From IMG/VR virus record IMGVR_UViG_3300013902_000006: 64,000 nucleotides of DNA. One strand, written 5' to 3'. The number at the start of each line of letters is the position of its first letter. The stretch's first letter is position 1. Made by a program: the position numbers and the translations under genes. The notes under the pieces were generated by a model. The model had not been told where the DNA came from. It ran no database searches and saw only the letters and a program-made list of their open reading frames with translations. The stretch comes from a virus (Duplodnaviria; Heunggongvirae; Uroviricota; Caudoviricetes). Of this stretch, positions 4,918-61,756 are shown piece by piece.

Positions 4918-6966
4918 ATGTCGGAAAACAAGATACAATATACGAACAGAAATTATGATGATTATCGTAAGAGTCTGATAGAATTAAGTCGAAAGTATTA
5001 TGGGGATGTTTTCGATAGTTTTGGTGATGCAAGCATAGGTCAATGGTTGATAGACGTTTTGTCGGATATTGGCGATAATTTGAATTACCATATTGATAGG
5101 TCATATCAAGAGACGAATATCAATAGTGCGCAGCAAGTAAGTTCGCTACAGGACATGGCGAGGACAAATGGTCTAAGATTACCAGGCAAAAAGAGTGCCT
5201 TGTGTGAGATAGAGATTTCGTGTGTTCTACCAGTATATCAGCAAGGAAACAATGGAAATGGTAATATCGCCCAAGCTGATGAGAATTATTGTCCTTATAT
5301 CAAGAGGGGAACATTGTTCTCGAATGGTTCGACCACCTTTGAATTGATGAATGACATTGATTTCGCCAACCAATTCAACAGTGATGGTTATTCAGACCGT
5401 GAGATTATCCCTAACAAGAATTCGAATGGAGTTATTGTTGGTTATACCTATAAAAAATTGGCTGTTGTAAGTGCAGGACAAAGTAAAATCTATAAAAAGG
5501 TCATAACATCATCAGATATCAAGCCTTTTATGGAGGTGCTGTTGCAAGACAATGATATACTTGGTGTGGAAAGTATCATATTCAAGGAGGGTAGCAATCT
5601 TAATTCTGATCCTACTATTGCTGAATTCTATGTGGATGAAGAGACTTATTACGATAAGTTGAACAAACCTGTACAACGTTATTTCGAGGTTGATAACTTA
5701 TTGGAACAAGAAAGATATGGTTATGAATTGCAAAAGACGGATATAAATGCACCTTTGACGGATGGCGAGAAAACAAACAGAACTTATTATAATCCGATAT
5801 GGGATAAAGAAGGCTTTATCATAGGTGATGAGAATATCGACGTAAGGGAAGTCGTAAGAGGCAAATGGAAACCATTGAAGAACAAATTCATTACCGAGTA
5901 TCAGGATAATTGGTATCTCAAGATAATATTCGGCTCTGGTGTAAGAAACAATTATGGAGAAATACCTTCAGATGCAAAGTCATTCACACAATATATGATG
6001 TCGAGGATGGAAGCGAATGATTGTATGGGGGTATTGCCCGAGACAAATACTACGATGTATGTATTATATAGAGTAGGCGGAGGAGAAATGTCGAATATTG
6101 CAGCAGGAACGTTAAATTCTATCATCTACCTCAATATGGATATTGTTGGGAATTGTGATGACAATAATAATGCAAGGAAAATCAAGAATGTCAGAAACTC
6201 ACTGTCAGTAACAAACACGACTCCTTCATATGGAGGAAAGGATGAACCGTCAACTGCTGAGATGCGTTATATGATAAAATACAATAGTGCGGAACAGAAT
6301 CGATGTGTCACATTGAACGATTATAAATCAAGGATACAGAAAATTCCTGCGATGTATGGTTTACCTTTCAGATTTAGTGTTAATGAGGAGAATAATAAGG
6401 TAGTTATTTATACCCTTGGTCTTGATTATAATGGTAAGTTGACAAGTTTATTGGCTGAAACTGTGGCAAACAATATCAAGACATATCTTACTCATTACAA
6501 GATGCTCAATGACTTTATTGAAATTAAGAGCGGAAAAATAATCAATGTGGCGTTTCGTCTGACAATGTATGTCGATAAGTCATACAGCAAATCAGAGGTG
6601 ACTAAGAGAGTTATCGATATGGTATATGATTATATGGATATTAGAAATCACCAAATGGGTGAGGATATTTTCTTGGGCGACTTGTCAAAGGAAATAGGAA
6701 AACTTGACGGCGTACAGAATCTCGTGTCTATTAAATGTTATAATAAAGTCGGTAACGGAGGCGATGGATATTCGACCGATACAATTAATCAACCTTTGGT
6801 AAGCGTATCGGACTGTTGTAATGATGAATATGCCGAGAGTGACATAAATACTGATAATCAGATTGACTTGGATTCAAGCGATTATACGCTAATAGGGGAT
6901 TCAATGTCAATGTTCGAGATAAGGGATAAGAATCATGATATCGAGGTCATCGTAAAGACAAGATAA
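4918..6966 (+). CDS. Putative baseplate wedge protein (gp6/Baseplate J-like)
   Basis: Large ORF directly after the gp25-like gene with a 9-bp gap, the conserved order in myovirus baseplate modules. No definitive motif, so the call is by synteny and size. Confidence 0.4.
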   Translation: MSENKIQYTNRNYDDYRKSLIELSRKYYGDVFDSFGDASIGQWLIDVLSDIGDNLNYHIDRSYQETNINSAQQVSSLQDMARTNGLRLPGKKSALCEIEISCVLPVYQQGNNGNGNIAQADENYCPYIKRGTLFSNGSTTFELMNDIDFANQFNSDGYSDREIIPNKNSNGVIVGYTYKKLAVVSAGQSKIYKKVITSSDIKPFMEVLLQDNDILGVESIIFKEGSNLNSDPTIAEFYVDEETYYDKLNKPVQRYFEVDNLLEQERYGYELQKTDINAPLTDGEKTNRTYYNPIWDKEGFIIGDENIDVREVVRGKWKPLKNKFITEYQDNWYLKIIFGSGVRNNYGEIPSDAKSFTQYMMSRMEANDCMGVLPETNTTMYVLYRVGGGEMSNIAAGTLNSIIYLNMDIVGNCDDNNNARKIKNVRNSLSVTNTTPSYGGKDEPSTAEMRYMIKYNSAEQNRCVTLNDYKSRIQKIPAMYGLPFRFSVNEENNKVVIYTLGLDYNGKLTSLLAETVANNIKTYLTHYKMLNDFIEIKSGKIINVAFRLTMYVDKSYSKSEVTKRVIDMVYDYMDIRNHQMGEDIFLGDLSKEIGKLDGVQNLVSIKCYNKVGNGGDGYSTDTINQPLVSVSDCCNDEYAESDINTDNQIDLDSSDYTLIGDSMSMFEIRDKNHDIEVIVKTR

Positions 6967-37880: not shown

Positions 37881-37934
37881 AAGAAATAAAAACTAAGTAA
37901 AATCATAATTTTTCTTAGAATTTTATATACGGTA
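37881..37934 (+). repeat. 54-bp exact direct repeat, copy 1 (copy 2 at 40458..40511)
   Basis: aagaaataaaaactaagtaaaatcataatttttcttagaattttatatacggta is identical at both positions. The repeat pair brackets the tRNA island and two ORFs. Confidence 0.9.
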
Positions 37935-38016
37935 CTCAAGTGGTTTAAGAGGACGGTCTTGAAAATCGTTAGCACTGTGATGAATGGTGGCGTGAGTCCG
38001 AATCTCACCCCCTCCG
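37935..38016 (+). pseudogene. 5'-truncated tRNA-Ser(TGA)-like pseudo-tRNA
   Basis: D-arm CTC/AAGTGGTTTAA/GAG, anticodon arm ACGGT-CTTGAAA-ATCGT, a long variable arm and T-arm GTGAG-TCCGAAT-CTCAC parallel E. coli tRNA-Ser. The 3' acceptor strand CCCCTCC has no complementary 5' strand. The body starts exactly at the end of repeat copy 1. Confidence 0.4.
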
Positions 38017-38025
38017 CAACCGAAT

Positions 38026-38113
38026 GGAAGACTAACCCTGATGGTGATGGGGGCATCCTGCTAAGATGTTTCGTTCGAGAAATTCGAATGTGGTTCGATT
38101 CCACAGTCTTCCT
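38026..38113 (+). tRNA. tRNA-Ser (anticodon GCT), type II
   Basis: Manual cloverleaf: acceptor GGAAGAC/GTCTTCC, D-stem CCC/GGG, anticodon stem GCATC/GATGT, loop CTGCTAA, variable arm TTCGA-GAAAT-TCGAA, T-arm TGTGG-TTCGATT-CCACA. No encoded CCA. Confidence 0.7.
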
Positions 38114-38398
38114 CAATTCAAAAGGTAGTATAGTTCAGTGGCAAAACACCCAAATCACAGGGATAAGAGATATGTCCAAATTGCGATTCACAATTAGATA
38201 CATATAAGTCTAAAAATAAAAATAGCAACAGAAATTATTATCGATTTCATAAATGATAATTTTTGACCTACGTCAAATAATCTATATAAAATGTGTGCGA
38301 ACACAATATTTTTAATATAATGTTTATATTTATTATTGAATAGAGAAAACCATATGATATGACTAAGCGAGATAATAAATAATATACCTATTAATTAA

Positions 38399-38881: not shown

Positions 38882-38954
38882 GTTTGATTCGCCCAGTTGG
38901 TAGGGCATTATTTTATGGTAATAACTGTCATCGGTTCGAGTCCGATATTAAACT
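38882..38954 (+). tRNA. tRNA with anticodon loop TTATGGT (apparent anticodon ATG, formally His)
   Basis: Acceptor GTTTGAT/ATTAAAC (one G-U), D-arm GCCC-AGTTGGTA-GGGC, anticodon stem TTATT/AATAA, T-arm ATCGG-TTCGAGT-CCGAT, 73 nt. A34 in the anticodon is unusual. Confidence 0.5.
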
Positions 38955-40588: not shown

Positions 40589-42697
40589 GTGGTGAATATT
40601 GATATTGATGATATACGTAAGAAGAATAAAATAATAGATAATGCGATTATCGCATTAAAAAAGAAATATATCGGTGTTGATGAACAAATCGACGAGATTA
40701 TGAATAATGTAAGGACGTGGTACTGTTATCCACAATTACAGTCTCGCCCTTGTGTCGTGAATTTATGGGGAATGAGTGGATGTTCTAAGACAGATTCTGT
40801 TCGTACAATTGCTAAGTTACTTAATCTTGAGGAAGATTTGATTTATTTTAATTTCGCAGACATTAATGAAAAAAATGCGTGGGAAATTGAGACCGACATT
40901 GAAGAAAACATAGGTAACAACAAGAGCAATCGCATTATTGTGTATGACGAATTTCAATATGCTGCAACTCTTGACAAGAAAAAGGAGGAGAAGGACAACA
41001 AGGGTGCTTTGAAACCATTTTGGGAATTGTTGGATACTGGTATTCTTCATAAGAAGACTGAGGTAAGCACTTTATTCGATGTTTATAAGATATATCTTGT
41101 ATTGAAGCGAATAATGGACAGTAATTATCCTATTAAGTTAGTCGACGGAAAGTGGCTTAACAGTAAGGGTTATATTGATAACACCAATGCCTATGAGAAA
41201 CGTGCAATAATGGATGTATTTGCACAGAATGATCAGCCTTGTTTTAAAAAGTATGATATGAATGGAGGAGATAGCATATCTTCAGAAGAAATATATTATA
41301 GTAATGACAAAACTGATTATGTTGAATTTAACCCTTGGTTGATAGATCGGGTAATTAGCATATACAATAATATTAATGGAAGTAAATATAAGTCTGACAA
41401 CGTTGAGATAAAGGAGAAGTTATATTCAATGTCCATTGATGAAATGATAAAGTTCTTTTTTGACCTTTATCATTCCGCATGTAAAGGTTATGACCTTAAT
41501 TTCAAGAATAGTCTTGTTTTTGTTATAGGTAATCTTGATGAGGCTTATGACGTAAGTTTCAATGTTAATCCCGATATGTCGCCTGATCAATTCCATAAGA
41601 TGACGAAGAAAATCAGTGTCGTTGATATTAAGGAAGCATTGAAGGAGAGATTCCGTAATGAACAAATCGCAAGGCTTGGCAACATTCATGTAATTTATCC
41701 GTCGTTCTCAAGCAAGACATTCAAGGGAATAATTCAAATGCAATTGGATAATTATTCCAAGGAGGTCAAAGAGAAAATCGGATGTGATATACGGTATGAT
41801 TCCTCAATTAACAAGATTATATATAAGGAAGGTGTATTCCCGACACATGGTACAAGACCTGTATTCTCAAGCATTCAAGAAATCGTCAAGTCAAGACTGC
41901 CTGAAGTAATAAAGCATCTTACCGAGATGAAACTGATACAAAGTTTAGACAGTTTGGAGTATTCGTATTCAAATGGCTATGTTAAGATGAAAGCGTATAA
42001 TATTGATGGTAATCTATTGTCTTCAATTAAGACAAAACTCAAATTGAGAATTGATAATCTTAGGAAATCAAGTCTAGATGATAAACAGGCATTATGTGCC
42101 GTACATGAAAGCGGGCATTTTGTCGTGTATACAAAAGTATACGGGAATGTACCTGCCAAGTTAATCTCAATGGCAACTGAGAGTGGAACAGGTGGTTTCT
42201 TGCAGCAAGACGATGATGAAGACGATAAGGCGATGAAGACATATGATTATTATTTTAATAACATCAAGATAGCTCTTGGAGGGTACGTCGCTGAGGAGGT
42301 AGTCTTTGGAAACAGTAAACGTACAAGTGGTGCGATATCAGATTTGAGGAAAGCGACTGCTATTGCGAGTAGAATGATGTTGGAAATGGGAATGGACAAG
42401 CCTATTGTTAAGAGTAACATGTTAGACCTTGAATCGCAGTATTTAATTGTCGACGATAAAAGGAAAGATATAAACGACAAGGTATCAGCAATAATTGGCA
42501 AGGCGTTGGATGAAGTTAAGGAATTGCTTAATGATGCTGATTATAGGGTAATGTTAAAAAAATCATCTGATTACTTGGCTACTCATTCTGAAATGCCGAG
42601 AAACAAGATGAAAGAATTTTTTTCGGTAATACCAAATTGTAAGAGAACTGTCATTAATGACAGATTTTACAGGAATGCCTTGAAAAATTTTAAATAA
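40589..42697 (+). CDS. P-loop ATPase fused to an FtsH-type (M41) zinc metallopeptidase domain; soluble, with no TM segments
   Basis: N-terminal deviant Walker A GMSGCSKT and Walker B IIVYDEF. The C-terminus aligns with the E. coli FtsH protease domain: HESGHF versus HEAGHA; KLISMATESGTGGFL versus KVTIIPRGRALGVTFF; LGGYVAEEVVFG..TSGAISDLRKATAIASRMMLEMGM versus [37 protein letters not shown]. Confidence 0.65.
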   Translation: MVNIDIDDIRKKNKIIDNAIIALKKKYIGVDEQIDEIMNNVRTWYCYPQLQSRPCVVNLWGMSGCSKTDSVRTIAKLLNLEEDLIYFNFADINEKNAWEIETDIEENIGNNKSNRIIVYDEFQYAATLDKKKEEKDNKGALKPFWELLDTGILHKKTEVSTLFDVYKIYLVLKRIMDSNYPIKLVDGKWLNSKGYIDNTNAYEKRAIMDVFAQNDQPCFKKYDMNGGDSISSEEIYYSNDKTDYVEFNPWLIDRVISIYNNINGSKYKSDNVEIKEKLYSMSIDEMIKFFFDLYHSACKGYDLNFKNSLVFVIGNLDEAYDVSFNVNPDMSPDQFHKMTKKISVVDIKEALKERFRNEQIARLGNIHVIYPSFSSKTFKGIIQMQLDNYSKEVKEKIGCDIRYDSSINKIIYKEGVFPTHGTRPVFSSIQEIVKSRLPEVIKHLTEMKLIQSLDSLEYSYSNGYVKMKAYNIDGNLLSSIKTKLKLRIDNLRKSSLDDKQALCAVHESGHFVVYTKVYGNVPAKLISMATESGTGGFLQQDDDEDDKAMKTYDYYFNNIKIALGGYVAEEVVFGNSKRTSGAISDLRKATAIASRMMLEMGMDKPIVKSNMLDLESQYLIVDDKRKDINDKVSAIIGKALDEVKELLNDADYRVMLKKSSDYLATHSEMPRNKMKEFFSVIPNCKRTVINDRFYRNALKNFK

Positions 42698-43373: not shown

Positions 43374-43381
43374 TACCTTTG
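43374..43381 (+). promoter_or_regulatory. -7 box TACCTTTG(CA) upstream of dnaJ
   Basis: TAnnTTTG match 21 nt before the ATG. The same TACCTTTGCA decamer recurs at 49156, 56101 and 62524. Confidence 0.45.
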
Positions 43382-48295: not shown

Positions 48296-49111
48296 ATGGC
48301 AAATAACAGAGTATTTAAGCCAATTCGTTATTTTGGCTCGAAAGGCACATTTTATAATAAACTTCTCGAATATTTTCCACCGAAGGATAGCTATAATATG
48401 TATATTGAACCCTTCGGTGGCTCATACACAATGGGTTTGTCTGCGGATTTACCTGATAAGGTATGCGAGATTTATAATGATAAAGAACATAATGTGTATT
48501 CTTTGTATAAAGTATTATCAGATAAGGTACTTTTTAACGAATTCGAACGATTATGTAATTTAGCGACATATAACGAATATATGCGACAGAAATGCCGAGA
48601 GGAATTAAAGAAAGATGAACTTGACATTGTTTTAAGAGCATTTTATTTCTTCTATGTAAACCACACAAGCCATAACGGTGTGGGAGGATTTAGTATTAAT
48701 CCCATTATAAGAAGAGGAATGGCAAAGAGCGTGTCTGATATGCTGTCTTGTATTGATAGGTTACCCGAGTTACATCAAAGGCTAAGTCGAGTAATAGTTA
48801 CCAATAAGGACGGTATCGAATTAGTTAAGAAATATAATACGGAGAACGTTTTTCTGTATTTAGATCCTCCATATGTCCAATCTACGAGAACATCGGCAAG
48901 ATATGCTGAGGATATGGACGATGAGACTCACAAAAAACTTATTGATGCTTGTATTGCCTCTAAAGCAAAGATATTAATTAGTGGCTATGACAATCCATTG
49001 TATGATAAGTTACTTTCCAATGGATTTACAAAAAGTCAATTCGAGGTAAATACTATCAGTGGAGACAAAAGGCCAAAAGTAAAGGTCGAGACAATATGGA
49101 AAAATTATTAA
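48296..49111 (+). CDS. DNA N6-adenine methyltransferase, Dam/D12 class
   Basis: RYFGSKGTFYNKLLEYFP (motif X/I region), IEPFGGS (FxGxG) and LYLDPPY (motif IV DPPY). Confidence 0.75.
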   Translation: MANNRVFKPIRYFGSKGTFYNKLLEYFPPKDSYNMYIEPFGGSYTMGLSADLPDKVCEIYNDKEHNVYSLYKVLSDKVLFNEFERLCNLATYNEYMRQKCREELKKDELDIVLRAFYFFYVNHTSHNGVGGFSINPIIRRGMAKSVSDMLSCIDRLPELHQRLSRVIVTNKDGIELVKKYNTENVFLYLDPPYVQSTRTSARYAEDMDDETHKKLIDACIASKAKILISGYDNPLYDKLLSNGFTKSQFEVNTISGDKRPKVKVETIWKNY

Positions 49112-49155
49112 CATCTTTTAAGGAAAAATAATTTTGTTTATTGGAAATAATGTAG

Positions 49156-49163
49156 TACCTTTG
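49156..49163 (+). promoter_or_regulatory. -7 box TACCTTTG(CA) upstream of the lipoprotein gene
   Basis: TAnnTTTG match 30 nt before the ATG. Confidence 0.45.
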
Positions 49164-49192
49164 CACTCGTTAAACAAATAATAAATATTTCT

Positions 49193-50017
49193 ATGAGAAA
49201 AATTCTAATGTTTATGACACTATTGTTGGTGTCAATTTTAGGTTTCACCTCTTGTCATAGTGTATCACCAGATGCTGATGAGGAAGCCGTAATGGTGAAG
49301 AAACCTTGGTTCTTCGGTCACGGTGGTGTAGAGAAGGATGCTGTTCAGACAGGACTTACTTGGTGTTGGTGGTCAACAAGTGGCTATTATTTCAAAATTG
49401 TCCCAGTTCGTCATGAAATTGCCTTGGATGATTTGTTCAGTGACGATAATACACCTCTTGATTTCCACACGGTAATTATTACACAGATTGAGCAAGGTAA
49501 GTCACCAATTCTTTTGCAAAACTATGGCGAGAATTGGTTCGATACGAATCTCAACAATTATTTCTGTAACCTTGTTCGAGACCATATTTCACAACATAGT
49601 CCATTCGATTTGATGTCAAATCGTGCAGTACTTAATGATATTGACAATAAGATACGTCAGCAGATGCAGAATTATGTCGCAGCCTTGTCTAAAAAGAAGG
49701 AAATGCCTGTTATTATCAAGGAGGTTATCATTGGTAAGGCAACACCGAATAAAGAGCAGCTTAACGAAATGAATCGCACCGCAAAGGTGGTACAAGCAAA
49801 ACAGACACAAGAGCGTGAATATGAGGTACAGATCGCTCGTGAGAAAGCTGAGAGACAGAAGGCGAAGGCTGATAAGGCGTATATGGAGGAAATGAATCTT
49901 TCTGCTGGACAATTCATTAATTTGAAATGGATTGAGACCGTTGCCAATAAGCAAGGCGCAAACATCGATGTTCTTGTAGGAGGAGGAAGTGACCCGATTT
50001 GGAATATTAAACGATAA
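49193..50017 (+). CDS. Lipoprotein (lipobox LGFTSC) with an SPFH/band-7-like C-terminal region
   Basis: Signal peptide MRKILMFMTLLLVSILGFTSC. Charged helical C-terminus QAKQTQEREYEVQIAREKAERQKAKADKA resembles HflK/C-type SPFH proteins. Local GC content is noticeably higher than in flanking phage genes. Confidence 0.5.
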   Translation: MRKILMFMTLLLVSILGFTSCHSVSPDADEEAVMVKKPWFFGHGGVEKDAVQTGLTWCWWSTSGYYFKIVPVRHEIALDDLFSDDNTPLDFHTVIITQIEQGKSPILLQNYGENWFDTNLNNYFCNLVRDHISQHSPFDLMSNRAVLNDIDNKIRQQMQNYVAALSKKKEMPVIIKEVIIGKATPNKEQLNEMNRTAKVVQAKQTQEREYEVQIAREKAERQKAKADKAYMEEMNLSAGQFINLKWIETVANKQGANIDVLVGGGSDPIWNIKR

Positions 50018-50052
50018 ATTATTTTAAACTTAAATAAATTAAATTTTAAAAA

Positions 50053-51153
50053 ATGAAAAAGTTTATTTTTATGATTATGGCTGCCTTGTGCAGCATCGTG
50101 ACGGCCTCAGCACAGTCACAGAGTAATTACAGTGGAAGTTCAAAGTTTTTTGATAACACATCAGTAGGTGTTGTCGGTGGCGTAGAAACCAACCTTCACG
50201 ATTGGAATGCCCCACAGGGTGCTGTCGCAGGAATCCTTTTGAATAAGGAGATTACCCCTATTTTTGGTGTAACACTTGAGGGTAATACAAACATCAACGG
50301 TCTCCGAAATTGGGAGAGTAAGGCATCCCATTCTTGTGGCGCAAAGGTATTTGATGCCTTTAGTGTTTATCTTACACCACGAGTAAATTTGTCGAATGCA
50401 TTGTTCGGTTATAAGGTCAATTCTCGAAAGTTTGAAGTTGAAGCTCTCGCAGGTCTTGGTTACGGAGCTTTCCTATACGACAATACTCATAATGCATTGC
50501 TTGCCAAAGCGGGACTCAATTTCAATTATAATCTGAGTAAGGCATTTACTGTAATGCTTCGTCCTGCGGTTATTTATGATTTGTCGGCAACTAATGTGAA
50601 GTTTGACTCACGTAGTGCTGTCGCACAACTGACAGTAGGTGTCACATATCATTTTAAGACCTCAAATGGCACACGTTCATTTAATAAGGCAAAGCTTTAT
50701 AATCAGTCTGAAATTGACGCTCTTAATGCAAAGATTGCTGACTTGCAGTCAAGCCTCGAAGCAGCAAATAAGGTGGCTAAGACAAATGCAATCAATACAG
50801 TAGATACTGTCTATGTAGAGAGTTCATCTTCATTGGGCAATGTTGTATCATTCAAACTTAATAGTTCAAAGGTCGATGAAACACAGATGGCAAATCTTGA
50901 CAATGCAGTACGTATGTTGAAGGAGAATACTGACTTGAAAGTTACTTTGAAGGGCTATGCTGATAAGAATACTGGTAGCGCATCCTATAACAAGAGATTG
51001 TCAGTTCGCCGTGCTGAGGCTGTGAAGAAGGTTATTGTTAATAAGTATGGCATCGATCCTGACCGTATCGATGTGCTTGGTGTTGGTGATACTGAGCAGC
51101 TTTATTCAGATAACAATTGGAATCGTGTTGTAATTTTTGTTGAGAACAAGTAA
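50053..51153 (+). CDS. OmpA-family outer-membrane protein (signal peptide + C-terminal OmpA peptidoglycan-binding domain)
   Basis: Signal MKKFIFMIMAALCSIVTASAQ. C-terminus VTLKGYADKNTGSASYNKRLSVRRAEAVKKVIV...DRIDVLGVGDTEQ matches the OmpA_C motif. Higher GC than the surroundings. Confidence 0.75.
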   Translation: MKKFIFMIMAALCSIVTASAQSQSNYSGSSKFFDNTSVGVVGGVETNLHDWNAPQGAVAGILLNKEITPIFGVTLEGNTNINGLRNWESKASHSCGAKVFDAFSVYLTPRVNLSNALFGYKVNSRKFEVEALAGLGYGAFLYDNTHNALLAKAGLNFNYNLSKAFTVMLRPAVIYDLSATNVKFDSRSAVAQLTVGVTYHFKTSNGTRSFNKAKLYNQSEIDALNAKIADLQSSLEAANKVAKTNAINTVDTVYVESSSSLGNVVSFKLNSSKVDETQMANLDNAVRMLKENTDLKVTLKGYADKNTGSASYNKRLSVRRAEAVKKVIVNKYGIDPDRIDVLGVGDTEQLYSDNNWNRVVIFVENK

Positions 51154-51179
51154 ATGAACGTATCTAATTAAATTTAATT

Positions 51180-51225
51180 CTTACCATAATGTTGTTACAT
51201 TACAATATTTTGGTAAGAATTTTCT
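51180..51225 (+). terminator. Compound hairpin TTCTTACCA...TGGTAAGAA after the ompA-like gene
   Basis: 9-bp inverted repeat enclosing a second small palindrome. T-rich downstream. Confidence 0.4.
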
Positions 51226-51242
51226 TTTTAAAATAATGTATA

Positions 51243-51626
51243 ATGGCTGAAATAATAAGATATTGTTTAACAAGTGAGGAGCATGATGGTGAAAATGTTT
51301 TTAAAGTTTGCCGTCCTAATATAATGGGGAATCCATTCACATTTCTTCCTAAAAGTAAATCTAAGTTTAAAAATTTAATAAAGGTAAAAACAAGGGATGA
51401 AGCAATTGATCTGTATGAACCTTATTTCGATGTGATGATAAAGAAAGACAAGAGATTTAAGGAAGAATGGGATAAAATGTTCAATGCGTATCTTAAATAT
51501 GACACCGTATATATTGGATGTTTTTGCGGGAAGGGAGAAAGATGCCACGGTGACATAATAGCCAAGAAGTTAAAACAAAGGGCAATCAAGCAAATGCTCA
51601 AGAATTTGGATATCATGAAAGATTAA
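51243..51626 (+). CDS. DUF4326-like protein (CxC...CHGD motif)
   Basis: CFCGKGERCHGDIIAKKL resembles the conserved C..C..CHgDvL core of DUF4326 phage proteins. Confidence 0.35.
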   Translation: MAEIIRYCLTSEEHDGENVFKVCRPNIMGNPFTFLPKSKSKFKNLIKVKTRDEAIDLYEPYFDVMIKKDKRFKEEWDKMFNAYLKYDTVYIGCFCGKGERCHGDIIAKKLKQRAIKQMLKNLDIMKD

Positions 51627-51946
51627 CGTAAATTTTTACAAAAGAAAGGATTATCTTTTAAAGAATATATCATATTTTCGTAATATTTGCAGGTAGTCGA
51701 AAAGTTATCGACATCAGTTTGCGACAATTCAAACCATTCGTTCATTATTCTGCAATGTCTGAAATGATTATGAATCAATGTTTCCATTCGATACATATAA
51801 TCTGTTGTGTATGTTCCTTTGACAGTCAAAATAGAGGAATTACCTGTCTGTAAATTTTTCAGCCTTTTATCGACGCTATTCTTAGTAATCCCGATTTTAT
51901 ACCTTTCGTTTTCCTCGTCAAATATCAAGTAAATATTCCCTCTCAT
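51623..51946 (-). CDS. GIY-YIG superfamily (T5orf172/MUG113-type) small nuclease-like protein
   Basis: NIYLIFDEENERYKIGITKNSVDKRLKNLQTGN matches the T5orf172 pattern (IY.I.....YKIG.T....RL..L.TGN). Lone minus-strand gene. Confidence 0.5.
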   Translation of the reverse strand: MRGNIYLIFDEENERYKIGITKNSVDKRLKNLQTGNSSILTVKGTYTTDYMYRMETLIHNHFRHCRIMNEWFELSQTDVDNFSTTCKYYENMIYSLKDNPFFCKNLR

Positions 51947-56100: not shown

Positions 56101-56108
56101 TACCTTTG
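56101..56108 (+). promoter_or_regulatory. -7 box TACCTTTG(CA)
   Basis: TAnnTTTG match. The ORF-track start at 56106 lies inside this box, so the real start is probably ATG 56136 (MKEWKYKP). Confidence 0.45.
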
Positions 56109-59591: not shown

Positions 59592-60353
59592 GTGAGTTTA
59601 TTCATTACAAATGAAGAGTTTGTCAAAAGTAAGATAAAACTTAAAAAATACAATCAAGAATGGAAAAAATATTCGGCAAGGAAATATGTCGGTGATTGTT
59701 CTTATTTATTCGAGAAACTGAAACCATCATCATATAAGGATTTCTACGAAAAATACATTAATGATGGAAAGAAAACAAGTGGAAGTATCAATATTGATGA
59801 TTACCATCGTGGACGAACGGAATGGGAAATAATAGATAATGCGAAATATTTGTATGATACTATCTGTAAGAGATATCCCGACGATAATGTAAATTTCGTT
59901 GACTGTCTGAATGTCACAGTAGGTCATACAATACACGAAACATATGATGGACACATTGTCGAAAACATCGTGGATGAAATGTTTAATAAAAAAGGTCTTA
60001 AAACAATTAAACCTTGTGGCGATGCTGATACGTTGTATGGTATTGACCGTTTTTGTTACATAGACGGCAAGTTGCAATTTACATTACAGATAAAACCCAT
60101 ATCATTTTTCTTGGGAAATTCAAATAGAAGTCTGATAGAAGATAGAATATCAGCTTTCAACAAAGGTAGGAAGGCTCAAGAGGTTTTTAATGTTAAGATG
60201 TATTACATAATATACGACGGTTCTGTAAGTAGCGAGAACAATGTTGGTTTTGTTTGCAAGCCTAATAACAAGATGGCATTTGAGCTATCTGAGTTATGCA
60301 ATTGTGATGGAACTGTTAAGATATTACCGAAAAATCGTTGTTTTAACAATTAA
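59592..60353 (+). CDS. Hypothetical protein
   Basis: 253-aa ORF. Confidence 0.45.
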   Translation: MSLFITNEEFVKSKIKLKKYNQEWKKYSARKYVGDCSYLFEKLKPSSYKDFYEKYINDGKKTSGSINIDDYHRGRTEWEIIDNAKYLYDTICKRYPDDNVNFVDCLNVTVGHTIHETYDGHIVENIVDEMFNKKGLKTIKPCGDADTLYGIDRFCYIDGKLQFTLQIKPISFFLGNSNRSLIEDRISAFNKGRKAQEVFNVKMYYIIYDGSVSSENNVGFVCKPNNKMAFELSELCNCDGTVKILPKNRCFNN

Positions 60354-60427: not shown

Positions 60428-60652
60428 ATGCAAGAAATCTATATTCTTATAAAAAGTGAAGGAATCTATGATTCACAGACGAGTTTTCCTGTTGCTGCAT
60501 TTATGAACCGAGAAGCTGCCGAGAAGGAGTGCAAACGTTTGAATGACGAAATGGATGATTTGCAAAGTCTATTTCCGATGCAAGCTGGGGCGCGTTCGTC
60601 ACAATGTTGGAATACAAAGCTAAGTGGTATGGAAAGACCCTATCCAAGATAG
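60428..60652 (+). CDS. Small hypothetical ORF whose 3' end runs into the TnpB remnant
   Basis: 74-aa ORF with a canonical promoter. Possibly a chimeric reading frame created by the IS insertion or deletion. Confidence 0.3.
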   Translation: MQEIYILIKSEGIYDSQTSFPVAAFMNREAAEKECKRLNDEMDDLQSLFPMQAGARSSQCWNTKLSGMERPYPR

Positions 60653-60915
60653 GAAGGTTCTATCCATCCTCAAAAACTTGCCATTATTGCGGCTATGTCA
60701 AGGAAGACTTGACTTTGTCTGACCGTTACTACACTTGCCCTAATTGTGGCAAGCTGATAGACAGAGACTTGAATGCAGCAAAGAACATCCTTGAGGAAGG
60801 AATAAGAAACATATCGGCAGGAACTGTCGATTACACCGATGGAGGGGGCGTAAGACTTGCTCGCAAGCATTCCCCGATGAAGTCGGAATCCCACAAGTCT
60901 TTAGCTTGTGGGTAG
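60559..60915 (+). mobile_element. tnpB: IS200/IS605-family TnpB (OrfB) C-terminal fragment with the element right-end hairpin; decayed IS
   Basis: In-frame translation ISDASWGAFVTMLEYKAKWYGKTLSKIGRFYPSSKTCHYCG...YTCPNCGKLIDRDLNAAKNILEEG matches the TnpB RuvC-II/Zn-finger/RuvC-III end (DASWGEF..LEYKA.W.G, SSKTCS.CG, DRDVNAAINI). The hairpin CCCACAAG-TCTTTAG-CTTGTGGG at 60890..60912 overlaps the stop, as expected for IS605 right-end/omega-RNA scaffolds. About 280 N-terminal aa are missing. Confidence 0.6.
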
Positions 60916-60985: not shown

Positions 60986-61756
60986 ATGAGATACTGTGGT
61001 AGTAAAAGAAAATTCATGAAGGAACTTCTTCCTATTCTAATGGAAGGGACGAATGAAAATACTTTGTTTGTGGACGTTTTCGGTGGAGGAATGAACGTAG
61101 TGTCCGAAATTCCTCTTGAGAAGAAAATTGCGAATGATAACAATCTGTATGTAGTAAGTCTTTGGAAATCTTTACAAAGTCATAAATTAAAAGGGACATT
61201 GCTTCCTCGACTGATAAATGACCATGTTACAGAAGAGGAGTATAGTGATGTAAAACGTAGTTTTCTCGATAAATCGGCCAAGTATTCATATGCCGAGATT
61301 GGTTATGTCGGTGCTGCTTTGTCATACGGAGGTGCATTTTTCAATGGTTATGCAAAGTTCAATCCAAAGAAAAATGAAGACCACGTAAAAGAGGCGTACA
61401 ACGGACTGATGAAACAATTGGAAGGGTTCAAAAACCTTGACACGACTGAATTTGTCTGCGAAGACTATCGTAATTTGAAGTTTAATAATGAGGGCGACGC
61501 ATTTAATGTAGTTCTATTTTGTGATCCTCCGTATTTTGCCACCCGTAAGTATTTGAGTGACTTTGATACTGAATTATTTTGGGGTTGGGTGAGAGAACAA
61601 TCGATTAGAGGCTATAAGGTATATGTCTGTGAATATGATGCACCATCCGATTTCAAATGCGTATGGAGCAAAAAGAAGAAAGATGGAATGGGCACGACAA
61701 AAACCGGACGTAAGCAGAGTACTAAAGTCGAGAAAATGTTTGTATACAATGGTTAA
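60986..61756 (+). CDS. Second Dam/D12-class DNA N6-adenine methyltransferase
   Basis: MRYCGSKRKFMKELLPIL, FVDVFGGGMNV (FxGxG) and LFCDPPYFATRKY (DPPY). Confidence 0.75.
   Translation: MRYCGSKRKFMKELLPILMEGTNENTLFVDVFGGGMNVVSEIPLEKKIANDNNLYVVSLWKSLQSHKLKGTLLPRLINDHVTEEEYSDVKRSFLDKSAKYSYAEIGYVGAALSYGGAFFNGYAKFNPKKNEDHVKEAYNGLMKQLEGFKNLDTTEFVCEDYRNLKFNNEGDAFNVVLFCDPPYFATRKYLSDFDTELFWGWVREQSIRGYKVYVCEYDAPSDFKCVWSKKKKDGMGTTKTGRKQSTKVEKMFVYNG

What the first reader, a model, noticed from the sequence alone, without database searches (positions are those of the whole stretch)
49156..51225. Host-like outer-membrane moron pair (SPFH-type lipoprotein + OmpA-family protein) with its own promoters, terminator and elevated GC
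Both genes carry Bacteroidetes-style secretion signals: a lipobox LGFTSC, and a signal peptide ending ASAQ. They have visibly higher GC than the surrounding phage DNA. The block is preceded by TACCTTTGCA -7 boxes and followed by a strong compound hairpin.

This resembles horizontally acquired host envelope genes. Their function is unknown. Candidates are superinfection exclusion, receptor masking or envelope remodelling during infection.
Basis: partly seen in the sequence, partly recalled or inferred. Interest (0 to 1): 0.55.

Follow-up and report, generated by a model that had tools for sequence, protein, structure and literature searches.

The report
Phage-encoded envelope gene pair (SPFH, OmpA)
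A large phage of gut Bacteroidales bacteria carries a two-gene operon for a lipid-anchored SPFH scaffold protein and an OmpA-type outer-membrane protein; the genes are real and secreted as described, but both are long-standing, separately inherited phage accessory genes, not a freshly captured host pair.

Summary
Genes at 49193-50017 (274 aa, SPFH/Band_7 lipoprotein) and 50053-51153 (366 aa, OmpA family) exist and carry conserved secretion signals.

- **Transcription:** there is one Bacteroidetes-type promoter (TTTG-N19-TACCTTTGCA, 49133-49165), not several. A strong hairpin terminator sits at 51176-51221. The 35-nt gap between the genes has no promoter, so this is one operon.
- **Promoter origin:** the promoter belongs to a class used by at least six other units in the window.
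- **GC content:** it is raised only modestly (0.40 against a mean of 0.348). The excess is mostly in first codon positions (Ala/Val-rich proteins), not third positions.
- **The pair is not a module:** 79 of 80 viral contigs with the SPFH gene lack OmpA nearby. 14 of 15 with OmpA lack SPFH. A sister jumbo phage has the same promoter-OmpA-terminator unit without SPFH.
- **SPFH:** its relatives are phage or prophage genes (PHROG 200).
- **OmpA:** it is a full-length homolog (35% identity) of the Bacteroidales major OmpA-like protein (PG32 type). It occurs in jumbo and megaphages, including Lak.
- **Selection:** both genes are under strong purifying selection, with saturated synonymous sites.

The likely role is envelope maintenance or protection of the infected cell. 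This is a new member of a known kind (phage envelope accessory genes). Interest is modest.

The parts
49116..49165 (+). Bacteroidetes sigma-A-type promoter. It has an upstream TTTTAAG element (49116-49122), a -33 TTTG (49133-49136), a 19-nt spacer and an extended -7 box TACCTTTGCA (49156-49165), which ends 27 nt upstream of the SPFH start codon (box start 49156 is 37 nt upstream of 49193).
   Evidence: Read directly from the sequence. The 10-mer is enriched, and its four exact copies are intergenic (the one at 56101 abuts the listed TTG start at 56106). The architecture is shared with sites at 43374, 52046, 56101, 60390, 62524 and 28016(-). It is conserved upstream of Band_7 in L001/L002 and sits directly upstream of OmpA in L009.
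49193..50017 (+). SPFH/Band_7 lipoprotein, 274 aa. It has a signal peptide (1-20), the lipobox LGFTS-C21, an SPFH alpha/beta domain (about 22-180), a 47-residue helix (187-233), a second helix (238-252) and a conserved C-terminal tail (253-274).
   Evidence: Pfam Band_7 3.5e-14. PHROG 200 'lipoprotein' 7.4e-25. AF2 model pLDDT 76.8. Foldseek matches full-length prohibitin, erlin, HflK/C, stomatin and flotillin subunits at E 1e-11 to 1e-7. C21 is nearly invariant (at least 90%) across 30 homologs, and it is retained in Proteobacterial homologs at 33% identity. dN/dS is 0.036.
50018..50052 (+). A 35-nt AT-rich gap between the genes, with no promoter box and no terminator. The two genes are therefore co-transcribed.
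   Evidence: The proximal part resembles the OmpA leader in L009.
50053..51153 (+). OmpA-family outer-membrane protein, 366 aa. It has a signal peptide (1-20, cleaved ASA|Q), eight beta strands (36-200), a linker helix (218-244) and an OmpA_C peptidoglycan-binding domain (259-364) with the motif GYADKNTGSASYNKRLSVRRAEAV.
   Evidence: Pfam OmpA 5e-17. PDB sequence hits to OmpA_C domains, best 9uu2 at 1.7e-20. AF2 model with 8 strands, a helix and an alpha/beta domain, pLDDT 68.5. Foldseek matches a full-length E. coli OmpA model (E 2e-9) and the 1bxw barrel. Full-length BLASTP to the Paraprevotella clara PG32-type OmpA gives 35% identity, E 2e-61. dN/dS is 0.124.
51176..51230 (+). Intrinsic terminator. 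A nested hairpin (11-bp outer stem and 8-bp inner stem, 51176-51221) is followed by a U-rich run.
   Evidence: dG -21.9 kcal/mol, z -5.33, 0 of 200 shuffles as stable. A hairpin at the same position follows OmpA in L001. A hairpin of different sequence follows OmpA in L009.

Best explanation
**What it is (well supported)**

This is a single accessory operon: promoter, SPFH lipoprotein gene, OmpA-like gene, terminator. It sits in a jumbo phage of Bacteroidales, probably infecting Prevotellaceae.

- The operon lies inside a block of host-maintenance genes: FtsH-like protease, DnaJ, NUDIX, IF3, sigma factor, Dam methylase, RNA repair and CCA-adding enzyme.
- It is read from a host sigma-A-type promoter, so host RNA polymerase can transcribe it without phage factors. 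Early expression is inferred from this.
- The two genes are evolutionarily independent phage residents that happen to be adjacent in this lineage.
- The OmpA unit is the older occupant of the locus. The SPFH ORF lies between its promoter and its leader.

**How it most likely works (inferred)**

*OmpA-like protein.* It is exported by Sec and cleaved by signal peptidase I before Gln21. It is then inserted by the host BAM machinery as an 8-stranded barrel in the outer membrane. Its C-terminal domain binds peptidoglycan through the retained Asp/Arg motif, adding outer membrane-to-wall tethers of the same kind as the host's major OmpA-like protein.

*SPFH protein.* It is exported, and lipid-modified at Cys21. 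Its SPFH domain starts only about 8 residues after the lipid, so it lies flat on the periplasmic face of a membrane. Like other SPFH proteins, it is expected to assemble through its long helix and conserved tail into a ring or cage that encloses a membrane patch.

*Combined role.* Together they would keep the envelope of the infected cell intact and organised during a long jumbo-phage cycle, while host gene expression is taken over. This is an 'auxiliary envelope-maintenance' role. A side effect or alternative is reduced access for other phages.

**Confidence**
- Identity and architecture: about 0.85.
- The envelope-maintenance function specifically: about 0.4.
For: **Domains and folds:**

**Secretion signals:** conserved across families.

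**Operon structure**
- One promoter, no internal promoter, strong terminator.
- The same promoter and terminator frame is conserved in relatives, with or without SPFH.

**Neighbourhood of host-maintenance genes:**

**Independence of the two genes**
- Within 8 kb, 79 of 80 viral SPFH loci lack OmpA and 14 of 15 viral OmpA loci lack SPFH.
- L009/L010 lack SPFH and Dam.

**Long residence and constraint**
- dN/dS is 0.036 and 0.124, with pS 0.5-0.8, like the sigma and IF3 genes.
- SPFH gene GC tracks each carrier genome.

**OmpA distribution**
- OmpA is found only on 150-550 kb viral contigs plus one 34 kb fragment, including the Lak megaphages.
- This fits a need specific to very large phages.

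**SPFH context in cultured lytic phages**
- In Siara and Tunturi_3 the gene sits among replication genes (helicase, polymerase, sliding clamp).
- In DLP_3 it sits next to a tRNA cluster among hypothetical genes.
- In none of the three is it with annotated lysis or virion genes.

**OmpA homology to the host protein:** OmpA is a full-length homolog of the Bacteroidales PG32/Pgm6/7-type major OMP.
Against: - No expression, localisation or phenotype data exist.
- Promoter timing is inferred from a motif only.
- The membrane that the SPFH lipoprotein ends up in (inner or outer) cannot be told from sequence in Bacteroidetes.
- Cage assembly was not modelled; only a monomer was predicted.
- The OmpA model is of moderate confidence (pLDDT 68.5).
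- The SPFH gene also occurs in temperate prophages next to integrases. There a lysogenic-conversion or exclusion role is at least as natural as 'maintenance'.
- New outer-membrane proteins made during one lytic cycle may be too few to matter mechanically.
Confidence: 0.5

Rival explanations
1. **Superinfection exclusion or receptor masking.** One or both proteins alter the cell surface or periplasm so that other phages, or progeny of the same phage, cannot adsorb or inject. The OmpA homolog would displace or heteromerise with the host OmpA-like receptor. The SPFH lipoprotein would trap or shield an envelope component needed for DNA entry.
For: - SPFH homologs lie in prophages close to an integrase or methylase, or to a portal gene, in Palleniella muris and Prevotella oral taxon 376. 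That is a typical position for lysogenic-conversion genes.
- A host-type promoter and stand-alone terminator fit constitutive or early expression.
- There is a precedent for prophage SPFH proteins that reach outer-membrane vesicles (PM0222; PMC9872710).
- From general knowledge: T5 Llp, phi80 Cor and the Lc porin of phage PA-2 act this way.
Against: - There are no matches to any PADLOC defence or exclusion model, apart from a trivial MotB-domain hit.
- The SPFH protein is extremely conserved (at least 68% identity across the 120 best cluster representatives, of 1160 matched) in phages of different types. An arms-race exclusion factor would be expected to diversify.
- OmpA is restricted to very large lytic-type genomes.
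- There are no acidic residues at +2 to +5 after Cys21, so surface exposure by the Bacteroidetes export signal is not expected (inference from general knowledge).
Confidence: 0.27
2. **HflK/C-like control of a membrane protease.** The SPFH lipoprotein forms a periplasmic cage around host FtsH (or the phage FtsH-like protease). It thereby tunes degradation of phage or host membrane proteins. OmpA would be unrelated cargo of the same operon.
For: - Foldseek matches full-length HflK/C-FtsH complex subunits (7vhq, 9cz2, 7wi3).
- A lipid anchor about 8 residues before the SPFH domain reproduces the HflK/C geometry on the periplasmic face.
- A phage FtsH-like gene lies 6.5 kb upstream.
- Pseudomonas phage PaBG annotates its homolog as 'putative FtsH protease regulator'.
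Against: - The phage FtsH-like protein has no transmembrane segment or periplasmic domain, so it cannot sit in a periplasmic cage.
- About 180 mid-size phage contigs carry the SPFH gene, and no FtsH-like match was found within 8 kb in the 80 loci examined.
- There is a single SPFH gene, not an HflK/HflC pair.
- There is no sequence-level match to any solved SPFH protein or any NCBIfam model.
- Bacteroidetes lipoproteins mostly go to the outer membrane (general knowledge).
Confidence: 0.13
3. **Lysis or virion components.** The lipoprotein and the outer-membrane protein would act as spanin-like lysis factors or as structural proteins of the particle.
For: - An outer-membrane lipoprotein is one half of a two-component spanin (general knowledge).
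- SPFH proteins were picked up at low counts in virion mass spectrometry of some Enterobacterial jumbo and Vi01-like phages (PMC7760394, PMC10892097).
Against: - There is no endolysin, holin or i-spanin nearby.
- At 274 aa with a full SPFH fold, it is unlike o-spanins of about 60 aa.
- Sec and lipoprotein signals, and a BAM-dependent barrel, target the host envelope, not the cytoplasmic assembly line.
- The gene neighbourhood in this phage and in three cultured phages is replication or host takeover.
Confidence: 0.05
4. **Assembly artefact or host contamination.** The block would be host DNA wrongly joined to a phage contig.
For: GC is slightly higher than in the flanks.
Against: - The same gene order is recovered in at least five independent assemblies from different samples (L001-L004, L068).
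- The phage promoter class and phage-level GC3 are present.
- The block has diverged in step with its flanking genes.
Confidence: 0.01

Closest known systems
Lambda lom and bor 'morons' (general knowledge, not tested here)
   Same: A phage carries an 8-stranded outer-membrane beta-barrel and a lipoprotein as non-essential extra genes. They have their own promoter and terminator and are targeted to the host envelope.
   Different: - Lom is of the Ail/OmpX type and has no peptidoglycan-binding domain. Bor is a small lipoprotein, not an SPFH protein.
- The lambda genes are expressed from a repressed prophage. Here the carrier looks like a lytic jumbo phage.
- OmpA here is conserved at its locus rather than sporadic.
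Lc porin of lambdoid phage PA-2 (general knowledge, not tested here)
   Same: A phage-encoded full-length homolog of a major host outer-membrane protein.
   Different: Lc is a 16-strand OmpC-type porin of a temperate coliphage with a known exclusion effect. The protein here is an OmpA/PG32-type tether in Bacteroidales phages, with no functional data.
Bacteroidales major OmpA-like proteins (P. gingivalis Pgm6/Pgm7 = PG32/PG33; Paraprevotella clara WP_278455238.1)
   Same: - Same three-part architecture: signal peptide with Gln at +1, barrel, coiled linker and OmpA_C domain.
- 35% identity over the full length, E 2e-61.
- One D-T-V O-glycosylation-type motif lies in the linker. Pgm6/7 are O-glycoproteins (PMC6112661).
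   Different: - About 25 residues shorter.
- Encoded by phages and forms its own clade: 52-96% identity within the phage set, against at most 49% to any representative outside the query's own 50%-identity cluster.
- C-terminal domains are shuffled between two types.
HflK/C, prohibitin, erlin, stomatin and flotillin cage-forming SPFH proteins
   Same: An SPFH domain followed by a long helix and a short C-terminal segment, with a membrane anchor immediately N-terminal. Foldseek probability is 1.0 over 240-300 columns.
   Different: - A lipid anchor replaces the transmembrane helix or hairpin.
- 12-18% identity only, with no profile match to any solved chain.
- No NfeD or HflC partner gene.
- Oligomeric state unknown.
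[quoted passage not shown]
   Same: The same family: 7.4e-25 to the PHROG, and 28-37% identity to cultured phage proteins. Function is unknown in all of them (PMC7760394).
   Different: This is the Bacteroidales branch. It is much more conserved internally, and here it is fused into an OmpA transcription unit.
Pasteurella multocida prophage protein PM0222 (HflK/C-like)
   Same: A prophage-borne SPFH protein that reaches outer-membrane vesicles (PMC9872710).
   Different: It was studied as a virulence factor in an animal pathogen. Its sequence relationship to this family was not tested here.

Membership tests
SPFH / Band 7 superfamily | Pfam PF01145 above the gathering score | tested here: met
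   53.7 bits against 23.6, residues 41-220.
SPFH / Band 7 superfamily | SPFH alpha/beta fold followed by a long coiled-coil helix, as in cage-forming members | tested here: met
   The AF2 model has strands 22-99, helices, and a 47-residue helix at 187-233. Foldseek matches prohibitin, erlin, HflK/C, stomatin and flotillin at E 1e-11 to 1e-7.
SPFH / Band 7 superfamily | Membrane anchor directly N-terminal of the SPFH domain | tested here: met
   The lipobox Cys21 is about 8 residues before the domain. It is nearly invariant (at least 90%) in the 30-sequence family alignment and invariant in a 7-sequence cross-phylum alignment. The anchor is a lipid, not a helix.
SPFH / Band 7 superfamily | Assembly into a large homo- or hetero-oligomeric ring or cage | not testable with these tools
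   Only a monomer could be predicted. The conserved but disordered tail (253-274) is compatible with an inter-subunit cap.
HflK/HflC (FtsH modulators) | Paired HflK and HflC genes, an N-terminal transmembrane helix, and a match to the equivalog models | tested here: not met
   There is a single gene with a lipobox instead of a transmembrane helix. No NCBIfam hit at E 0.01 or below and no PDB sequence hit.
HflK/HflC (FtsH modulators) | A membrane-anchored FtsH partner with a periplasmic domain | tested here: inconclusive
   The phage FtsH-like protein has no transmembrane segment, so it is excluded. Host FtsH was not examined.
OmpA family (OmpA-OmpF/OOP) | C-terminal OmpA_C peptidoglycan-binding domain above the Pfam cut-off, with the D...R motif | tested here: met
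   PF00691 at 62.5 bits against 27.2. 49 PDB OmpA_C chains match at E 1e-4 or below. GYAD...LSVRRAEAV is read in the sequence, and R320 is invariant. The motif assignment comes from general knowledge.
OmpA family (OmpA-OmpF/OOP) | N-terminal 8-stranded outer-membrane beta-barrel preceded by a Sec signal peptide | tested here: met
   The AF2 model has eight strands at 36-200 (pLDDT 68.5 overall). Foldseek matches a full-length OmpA model and 1bxw. No Pfam barrel family matched.
Bacteroidales PG32/PG33 (Pgm6/7)-type major OMP | Full-length collinear homology to a named bacterial member | tested here: met
   35% identity, residues 1-361 against 1-387, E 2e-61 to Paraprevotella clara. It is a homolog, not an ortholog: the phage proteins form their own group.
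Moron (extra phage gene with its own promoter and terminator) | Flanked by its own promoter and factor-independent terminator | tested here: met
   Met by sequence motifs and folding only. Transcription was not measured.
Moron (extra phage gene with its own promoter and terminator) | Present in some and absent in other otherwise collinear phages | tested here: inconclusive
   Met for SPFH, which is absent from L009/L010. Not met for OmpA, which is present at this locus in every relative seen.
Moron (extra phage gene with its own promoter and terminator) | Nucleotide composition clearly different from the surrounding genome | tested here: inconclusive
   GC is +1.6 sd, but GC3 is only +0.6 to +1.1 sd. 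The codon-usage rank is 2nd of 54 for OmpA and 10th for SPFH.
Two-component spanin (o-spanin lipoprotein) | A small outer-membrane lipoprotein next to or inside an i-spanin gene in a lysis cassette | tested here: not met
   It is a 274-aa SPFH protein with no lysis genes among its neighbours.
Known anti-phage defence or exclusion systems (PADLOC) | Match to a defence-system protein model | tested here: not met
   None for SPFH. OmpA gives only a weak ZorB/MotB-domain hit (E 0.0016).

The most novel reading that the evidence does not exclude
The lipid-anchored SPFH protein may be a phage-specific invention used across at least three bacterial phyla. It occurs in Bacteroidota, Pseudomonadota and Acidobacteriota phages, both lytic and temperate. 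It would be made early and would build periplasmic cages on a host membrane that capture a conserved envelope machine. Candidates are the wall-synthesis, secretion or DNA-entry apparatus. This would be a general, so far undescribed way for phages to take control of the cell envelope. In jumbo and megaphages of Prevotella it would work alongside a phage-made copy of the host's main outer membrane-to-wall tether.
Probability: 0.2. Interest if true: 0.65.

Novelty: new member of a known kind. Interest (0 to 1): 0.33.

Why it matters
- Phages that rebuild the envelope of the cell they infect are known from a handful of coliphage genes. Almost nothing is known for the abundant gut Bacteroidales phages.
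- This locus gives two concrete, strongly conserved candidates.
  - The SPFH lipoprotein family has more than a thousand metagenomic cluster representatives and no assigned function.
  - The other is a phage copy of the major OmpA-like protein, shared by jumbo phages and Lak megaphages.
- If they stabilise or shield infected cells, they would affect burst size, vesicle release and phage-phage competition in the gut.
- As it stands the finding is an annotation-level result. It also corrects the 'recent host capture' reading.

Tried and rejected
1. **Fused SPFH+OmpA alignment for the genome-contig scan.** The tool chose both patterns from the SPFH half, so no bacterial OmpA loci were obtained that way. 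Bacterial OmpA relatives were recovered instead through the representative search and cluster look-ups.
2. **Foldseek against afdb50.** The library was not available.
3. **Third homology search with a cross-phylum SPFH alignment.** It returned almost the same close Bacteroidales-phage set and added little diversity.
4. **Phage FtsH-like protease as SPFH partner.** Rejected because the protease has no membrane segment.
5. **Recent phage-to-phage transfer of SPFH.** I first read the 86-87% protein identity to mid-size phages that way. It was rejected because synonymous sites are saturated (pS 0.79); the identity reflects constraint.
6. **PADLOC.** It gave nothing useful.
7. **Literature searches.** Searches for phage SPFH lipoproteins and phage OmpA in Prevotella megaphages found only annotations, with no functional work.
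8. **Rfam.** It found only tRNAs in the window.
9. **Sigma-70 consensus scan.** It is uninformative for this organism (16 found against 14.9 expected).
Full report
**The sequence features**

The region holds two + strand ORFs, 49193-50017 (274 aa) and 50053-51153 (366 aa).
- The first matches Pfam Band_7/SPFH (3.5e-14) and, more strongly, PHROG 200 'lipoprotein' (7.4e-25). No NCBIfam bacterial family matches it.
- The second matches Pfam OmpA in its last 100 residues (5e-17) and many OmpA_C-type NCBIfam models, all far below their equivalog cut-offs.
Cys21 is nearly invariant in the SPFH family and Ala20-Gln21 is invariant in the OmpA family. Cys21 persists even in Proteobacterial homologs at 33% identity.
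- Gln at +1 fits the Bacteroidetes habit of pyroglutamate N-termini (general knowledge).

**Regulatory signals**

TACCTTTGCA is at 49156-49165, with TTTG 19 nt upstream. That is the Bacteroidetes -33/-7 arrangement (general knowledge; sequence).
- The 10-mer with at most 1 mismatch occurs 13 times against 3.9 expected. All four exact copies are intergenic on the + strand. Three lie 28-37 nt upstream of a listed start codon; the fourth (56101) abuts the listed TTG start at 56106, so the true start is probably further downstream.
- Aligned, seven such sites share TTTTAAC - TTTG - N19 - TAyCTTTGCA. The block therefore uses the phage's standard host-type promoter, not an imported one, and there is only one of them.
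- The gap between the genes is 35 nt of AT with no box and no hairpin, so the pair is an operon.
- The nested hairpin at 51176-51221 plus U-run is a convincing terminator (dG -21.9 kcal/mol, z -5.3).

**Composition**

- The genes have GC 0.401 and 0.403, ranks 2 and 3 of 54 (mean 0.348, sd 0.033). GC3 is 0.389 and 0.360 against a mean of 0.332 (sd 0.050), while GC1 is 0.48-0.50.
- Ala and Val are 2-3 times the window average in OmpA, and Ala and Gln are enriched in SPFH.
- Synonymous codon usage is the second most atypical for OmpA and unremarkable for SPFH.
- For scale, a TnpB fragment at 60604-60915 has GC 0.452 and GC3 0.51.
- SPFH homologs in other phages always sit a little above their own genome's GC, whatever that is: 0.415 in a 0.40 locus, 0.508 in a 0.488 locus and 0.418 in a 0.356 locus.
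- The GC bump is real but mostly a protein-composition effect.

**What carries the genes**

- The window has tRNAs, an IF3, a sigma factor, DnaJ, an FtsH-like protease, a CCA-adding enzyme and RNA-repair genes.
- Syntenic relatives lie on contigs of 180-340 kb. This is a jumbo phage.
- The promoter type, the Bacteroidales relatives of both proteins and the weak DNA hit to Prevotella Lak phages point to a Bacteroidales host, probably Prevotellaceae.

**Are the genes a pair?**

No.
- In close relatives (L001-L004, L068) the order Dam - SPFH - OmpA - DUF4326 is kept.
- In a more distant sister (L009/L010: OmpA 67%, IF3 69%, sigma 45%) the flanks are collinear, but Dam and SPFH are missing.
  - There TACCTTTGCA sits directly before OmpA, and a hairpin of different sequence follows it.
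  - The promoter-OmpA-terminator unit is therefore the conserved element, and SPFH lies inside its leader.
- In IMG/VR, 184 contigs encode the SPFH protein. Of the best 80, 79 have no OmpA within 8 kb. Most are 50-130 kb contigs of unrelated phages with SPP1-type portal and terminase genes.
- OmpA homologs were found on 15 viral contigs: fourteen of 150-550 kb plus one 34 kb fragment, including Lak-like ones at 35-37%. Fourteen have no SPFH nearby.

**Origin of each gene**

*SPFH*
- All close relatives are in phage contexts.
- In bacterial genomes the Bacteroidales copies (39-84% identity) lie beside an integrase and a methyltransferase (Palleniella muris), a portal gene (Prevotella oral taxon 376), or phage-type primase, exonuclease, SbcC-like and ATPase genes.
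- Copies with ordinary chromosomal neighbours were seen only in Proteobacteria at 33% identity, in the two such loci inspected (Solimonas, Chitinimonas).
- Cultured lytic phages of Stenotrophomonas, Xanthomonas, Pseudomonas and Tunturiibacter carry homologs (28-37%).
  - In Siara and Tunturi_3 the gene sits among helicase, polymerase and clamp genes.
  - In DLP_3 it sits by a tRNA cluster among hypothetical genes.
  - In Siara it is followed by its own annotated terminator.

*OmpA*
- The representative search finds many full-length relatives at 35-49%.
- Those with names are OmpA family proteins of Paraprevotella clara ('immunoreactive antigen PG32') and Muribaculaceae.
- BLASTP to the former is collinear over the whole length (35%, E 2e-61).
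- The phage protein therefore descends from the Bacteroidales major OmpA-like protein, but at a distance that excludes recent capture.

**Selection**

- Against L001, dN/dS is 0.036 (SPFH) and 0.124 (OmpA), with pS 0.68 and 0.51. Sigma and IF3 give 0.038 and 0.064, with pS 0.73 and 0.62.
- SPFH against a mid-size phage copy (87% protein identity) has pS 0.79, which is saturated.
- Both genes are old residents under strong constraint.

**Structures**

- The SPFH model (pLDDT 76.8) has the alpha/beta SPFH domain, a 47-residue helix, a second helix and a conserved but unmodelled tail.
- Foldseek aligns 240-300 columns to subunits of the prohibitin, erlin, HflK/C, stomatin, flotillin and QmcA cages. 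No solved chain matches by sequence.
- The OmpA model (pLDDT 68.5) has eight strands, a 27-residue helix and an OmpA_C domain. It matches a full-length E. coli OmpA model, the 1bxw barrel and many OmpA_C domains. The best sequence match is 9uu2.

**Function**

Nothing here measures function. The positive clues are:
- export signals;
- a host-type promoter;
- position in a block of genes that keep the host cell running;
- restriction of OmpA almost entirely to very large phages;
- extreme conservation of SPFH in many phage types;
- absence of lysis, virion or defence signatures.

I favour envelope maintenance. The phage supplies extra outer membrane-to-wall tethers and a periplasmic membrane scaffold while it takes over host expression.

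Exclusion of other phages is the main rival and fits the prophage copies better.

An HflK/C-like role on host FtsH remains possible. The phage's own FtsH-like protein is soluble and is excluded as a partner.

**Literature**

- Phage 'SPFH domain band 7 family lipoproteins' are annotated in Vi01-like and RaK2-like phages, with function stated as unknown (PMC10892097, PMC7760394).
- A prophage HflK/C-like protein of Pasteurella reaches vesicles (PMC9872710).
- I found no description of OmpA-type proteins in Prevotella jumbo or Lak phages.
- Conceptually the closest precedents are lambda lom/bor and the PA-2 Lc porin (general knowledge).

**Verdict**

- The feature is real and correctly located, and the domain calls are right.
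- 'Moron pair recently taken from the host' should be replaced by 'two independent, long-resident phage accessory envelope genes sharing one standard phage promoter'.
- It is a new member of a known kind, with modest interest.

Noticed in passing
window 60604-60915 (with 59592-60353 and 60986-61756): A 103-aa ORF is a lone Cas12f1-like/TnpB TNB-domain fragment (Pfam 8.8e-23). It has the highest GC (0.452, GC3 0.51) and the most atypical codon usage of 54 genes. It lies between an MjaI-like restriction endonuclease homolog and a second Dam-like methyltransferase. A full OrfB_IS605/TnpB gene is present near the equivalent locus in L009.
   Followed up: partly
window 40589-42697: An FtsH-like protein (ClpB_D2-small region plus M41 peptidase, HESGH motif) has no N-terminal transmembrane segment. 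It is a soluble phage version of a normally membrane-bound protease, and it lies next to DnaJ.
   Followed up: partly
alignment A4 (homologs of window 50053-51153), columns about 270-400: The phage OmpA family has two distinct C-terminal peptidoglycan-binding domain types (GYADKNTGS... and GYASTEGS...). They are combined with the same barrel variants, which indicates domain shuffling. The second type lacks the Asp of the usual binding motif.
   Followed up: no
window 43374, 49156, 52046, 56101, 60390, 62524 (+) and 28016 (-): A shared promoter architecture, TTTTAAC - about 10 nt - TTTG - 19 nt - TAyCTTTGCA, marks at least seven transcription units. The upstream TTTTAAC element is not part of the textbook Bacteroides consensus.
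   Followed up: partly
window 38882-38954 and 37931-38010: ARAGORN calls a tRNA-His with the anticodon ATG (A at position 34), which is unusual. Rfam also reports a weak extra tRNA-like hit (31.7 bits) at 37931-38010 that ARAGORN does not call, just before the tRNA-Ser at 38026-38114.
   Followed up: no
window 51623-51946 (- strand): A T5orf172/MUG113-domain gene lies on the opposite strand immediately after DUF4326. It is conserved in position in all relatives, including L009.
   Followed up: no
window 48296-49111; L009 5897-6000: The Dam (D12-class) methyltransferase upstream of SPFH is missing, together with SPFH, in the sister phage L009/L010. The indel therefore spans two genes belonging to two different transcription units.
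   Followed up: partly
window 50803-50811 (OmpA residues 251-253): A single D-T-V motif, matching the Bacteroidetes O-glycosylation sequon D(S/T)(A/I/L/V/M/T), lies in the linker between the helix and the OmpA_C domain. It is conserved as DTV(Y/F) in the type-A subfamily.
   Followed up: no
L033 (Solimonas terrae) 5950-6759; L061 (Chitinimonas taiwanensis) 5944-6762: Proteobacterial chromosomal homologs of the SPFH lipoprotein keep the lipobox Cys and the KPWFFGHGGV motif at 33% identity. They lie among ordinary-looking genes; in L061 these may be efflux/ABC-type genes, judged only from ORF sizes and N-terminal sequences, with no family search run. A bacterial branch of the family therefore exists, also uncharacterised.
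   Followed up: partly
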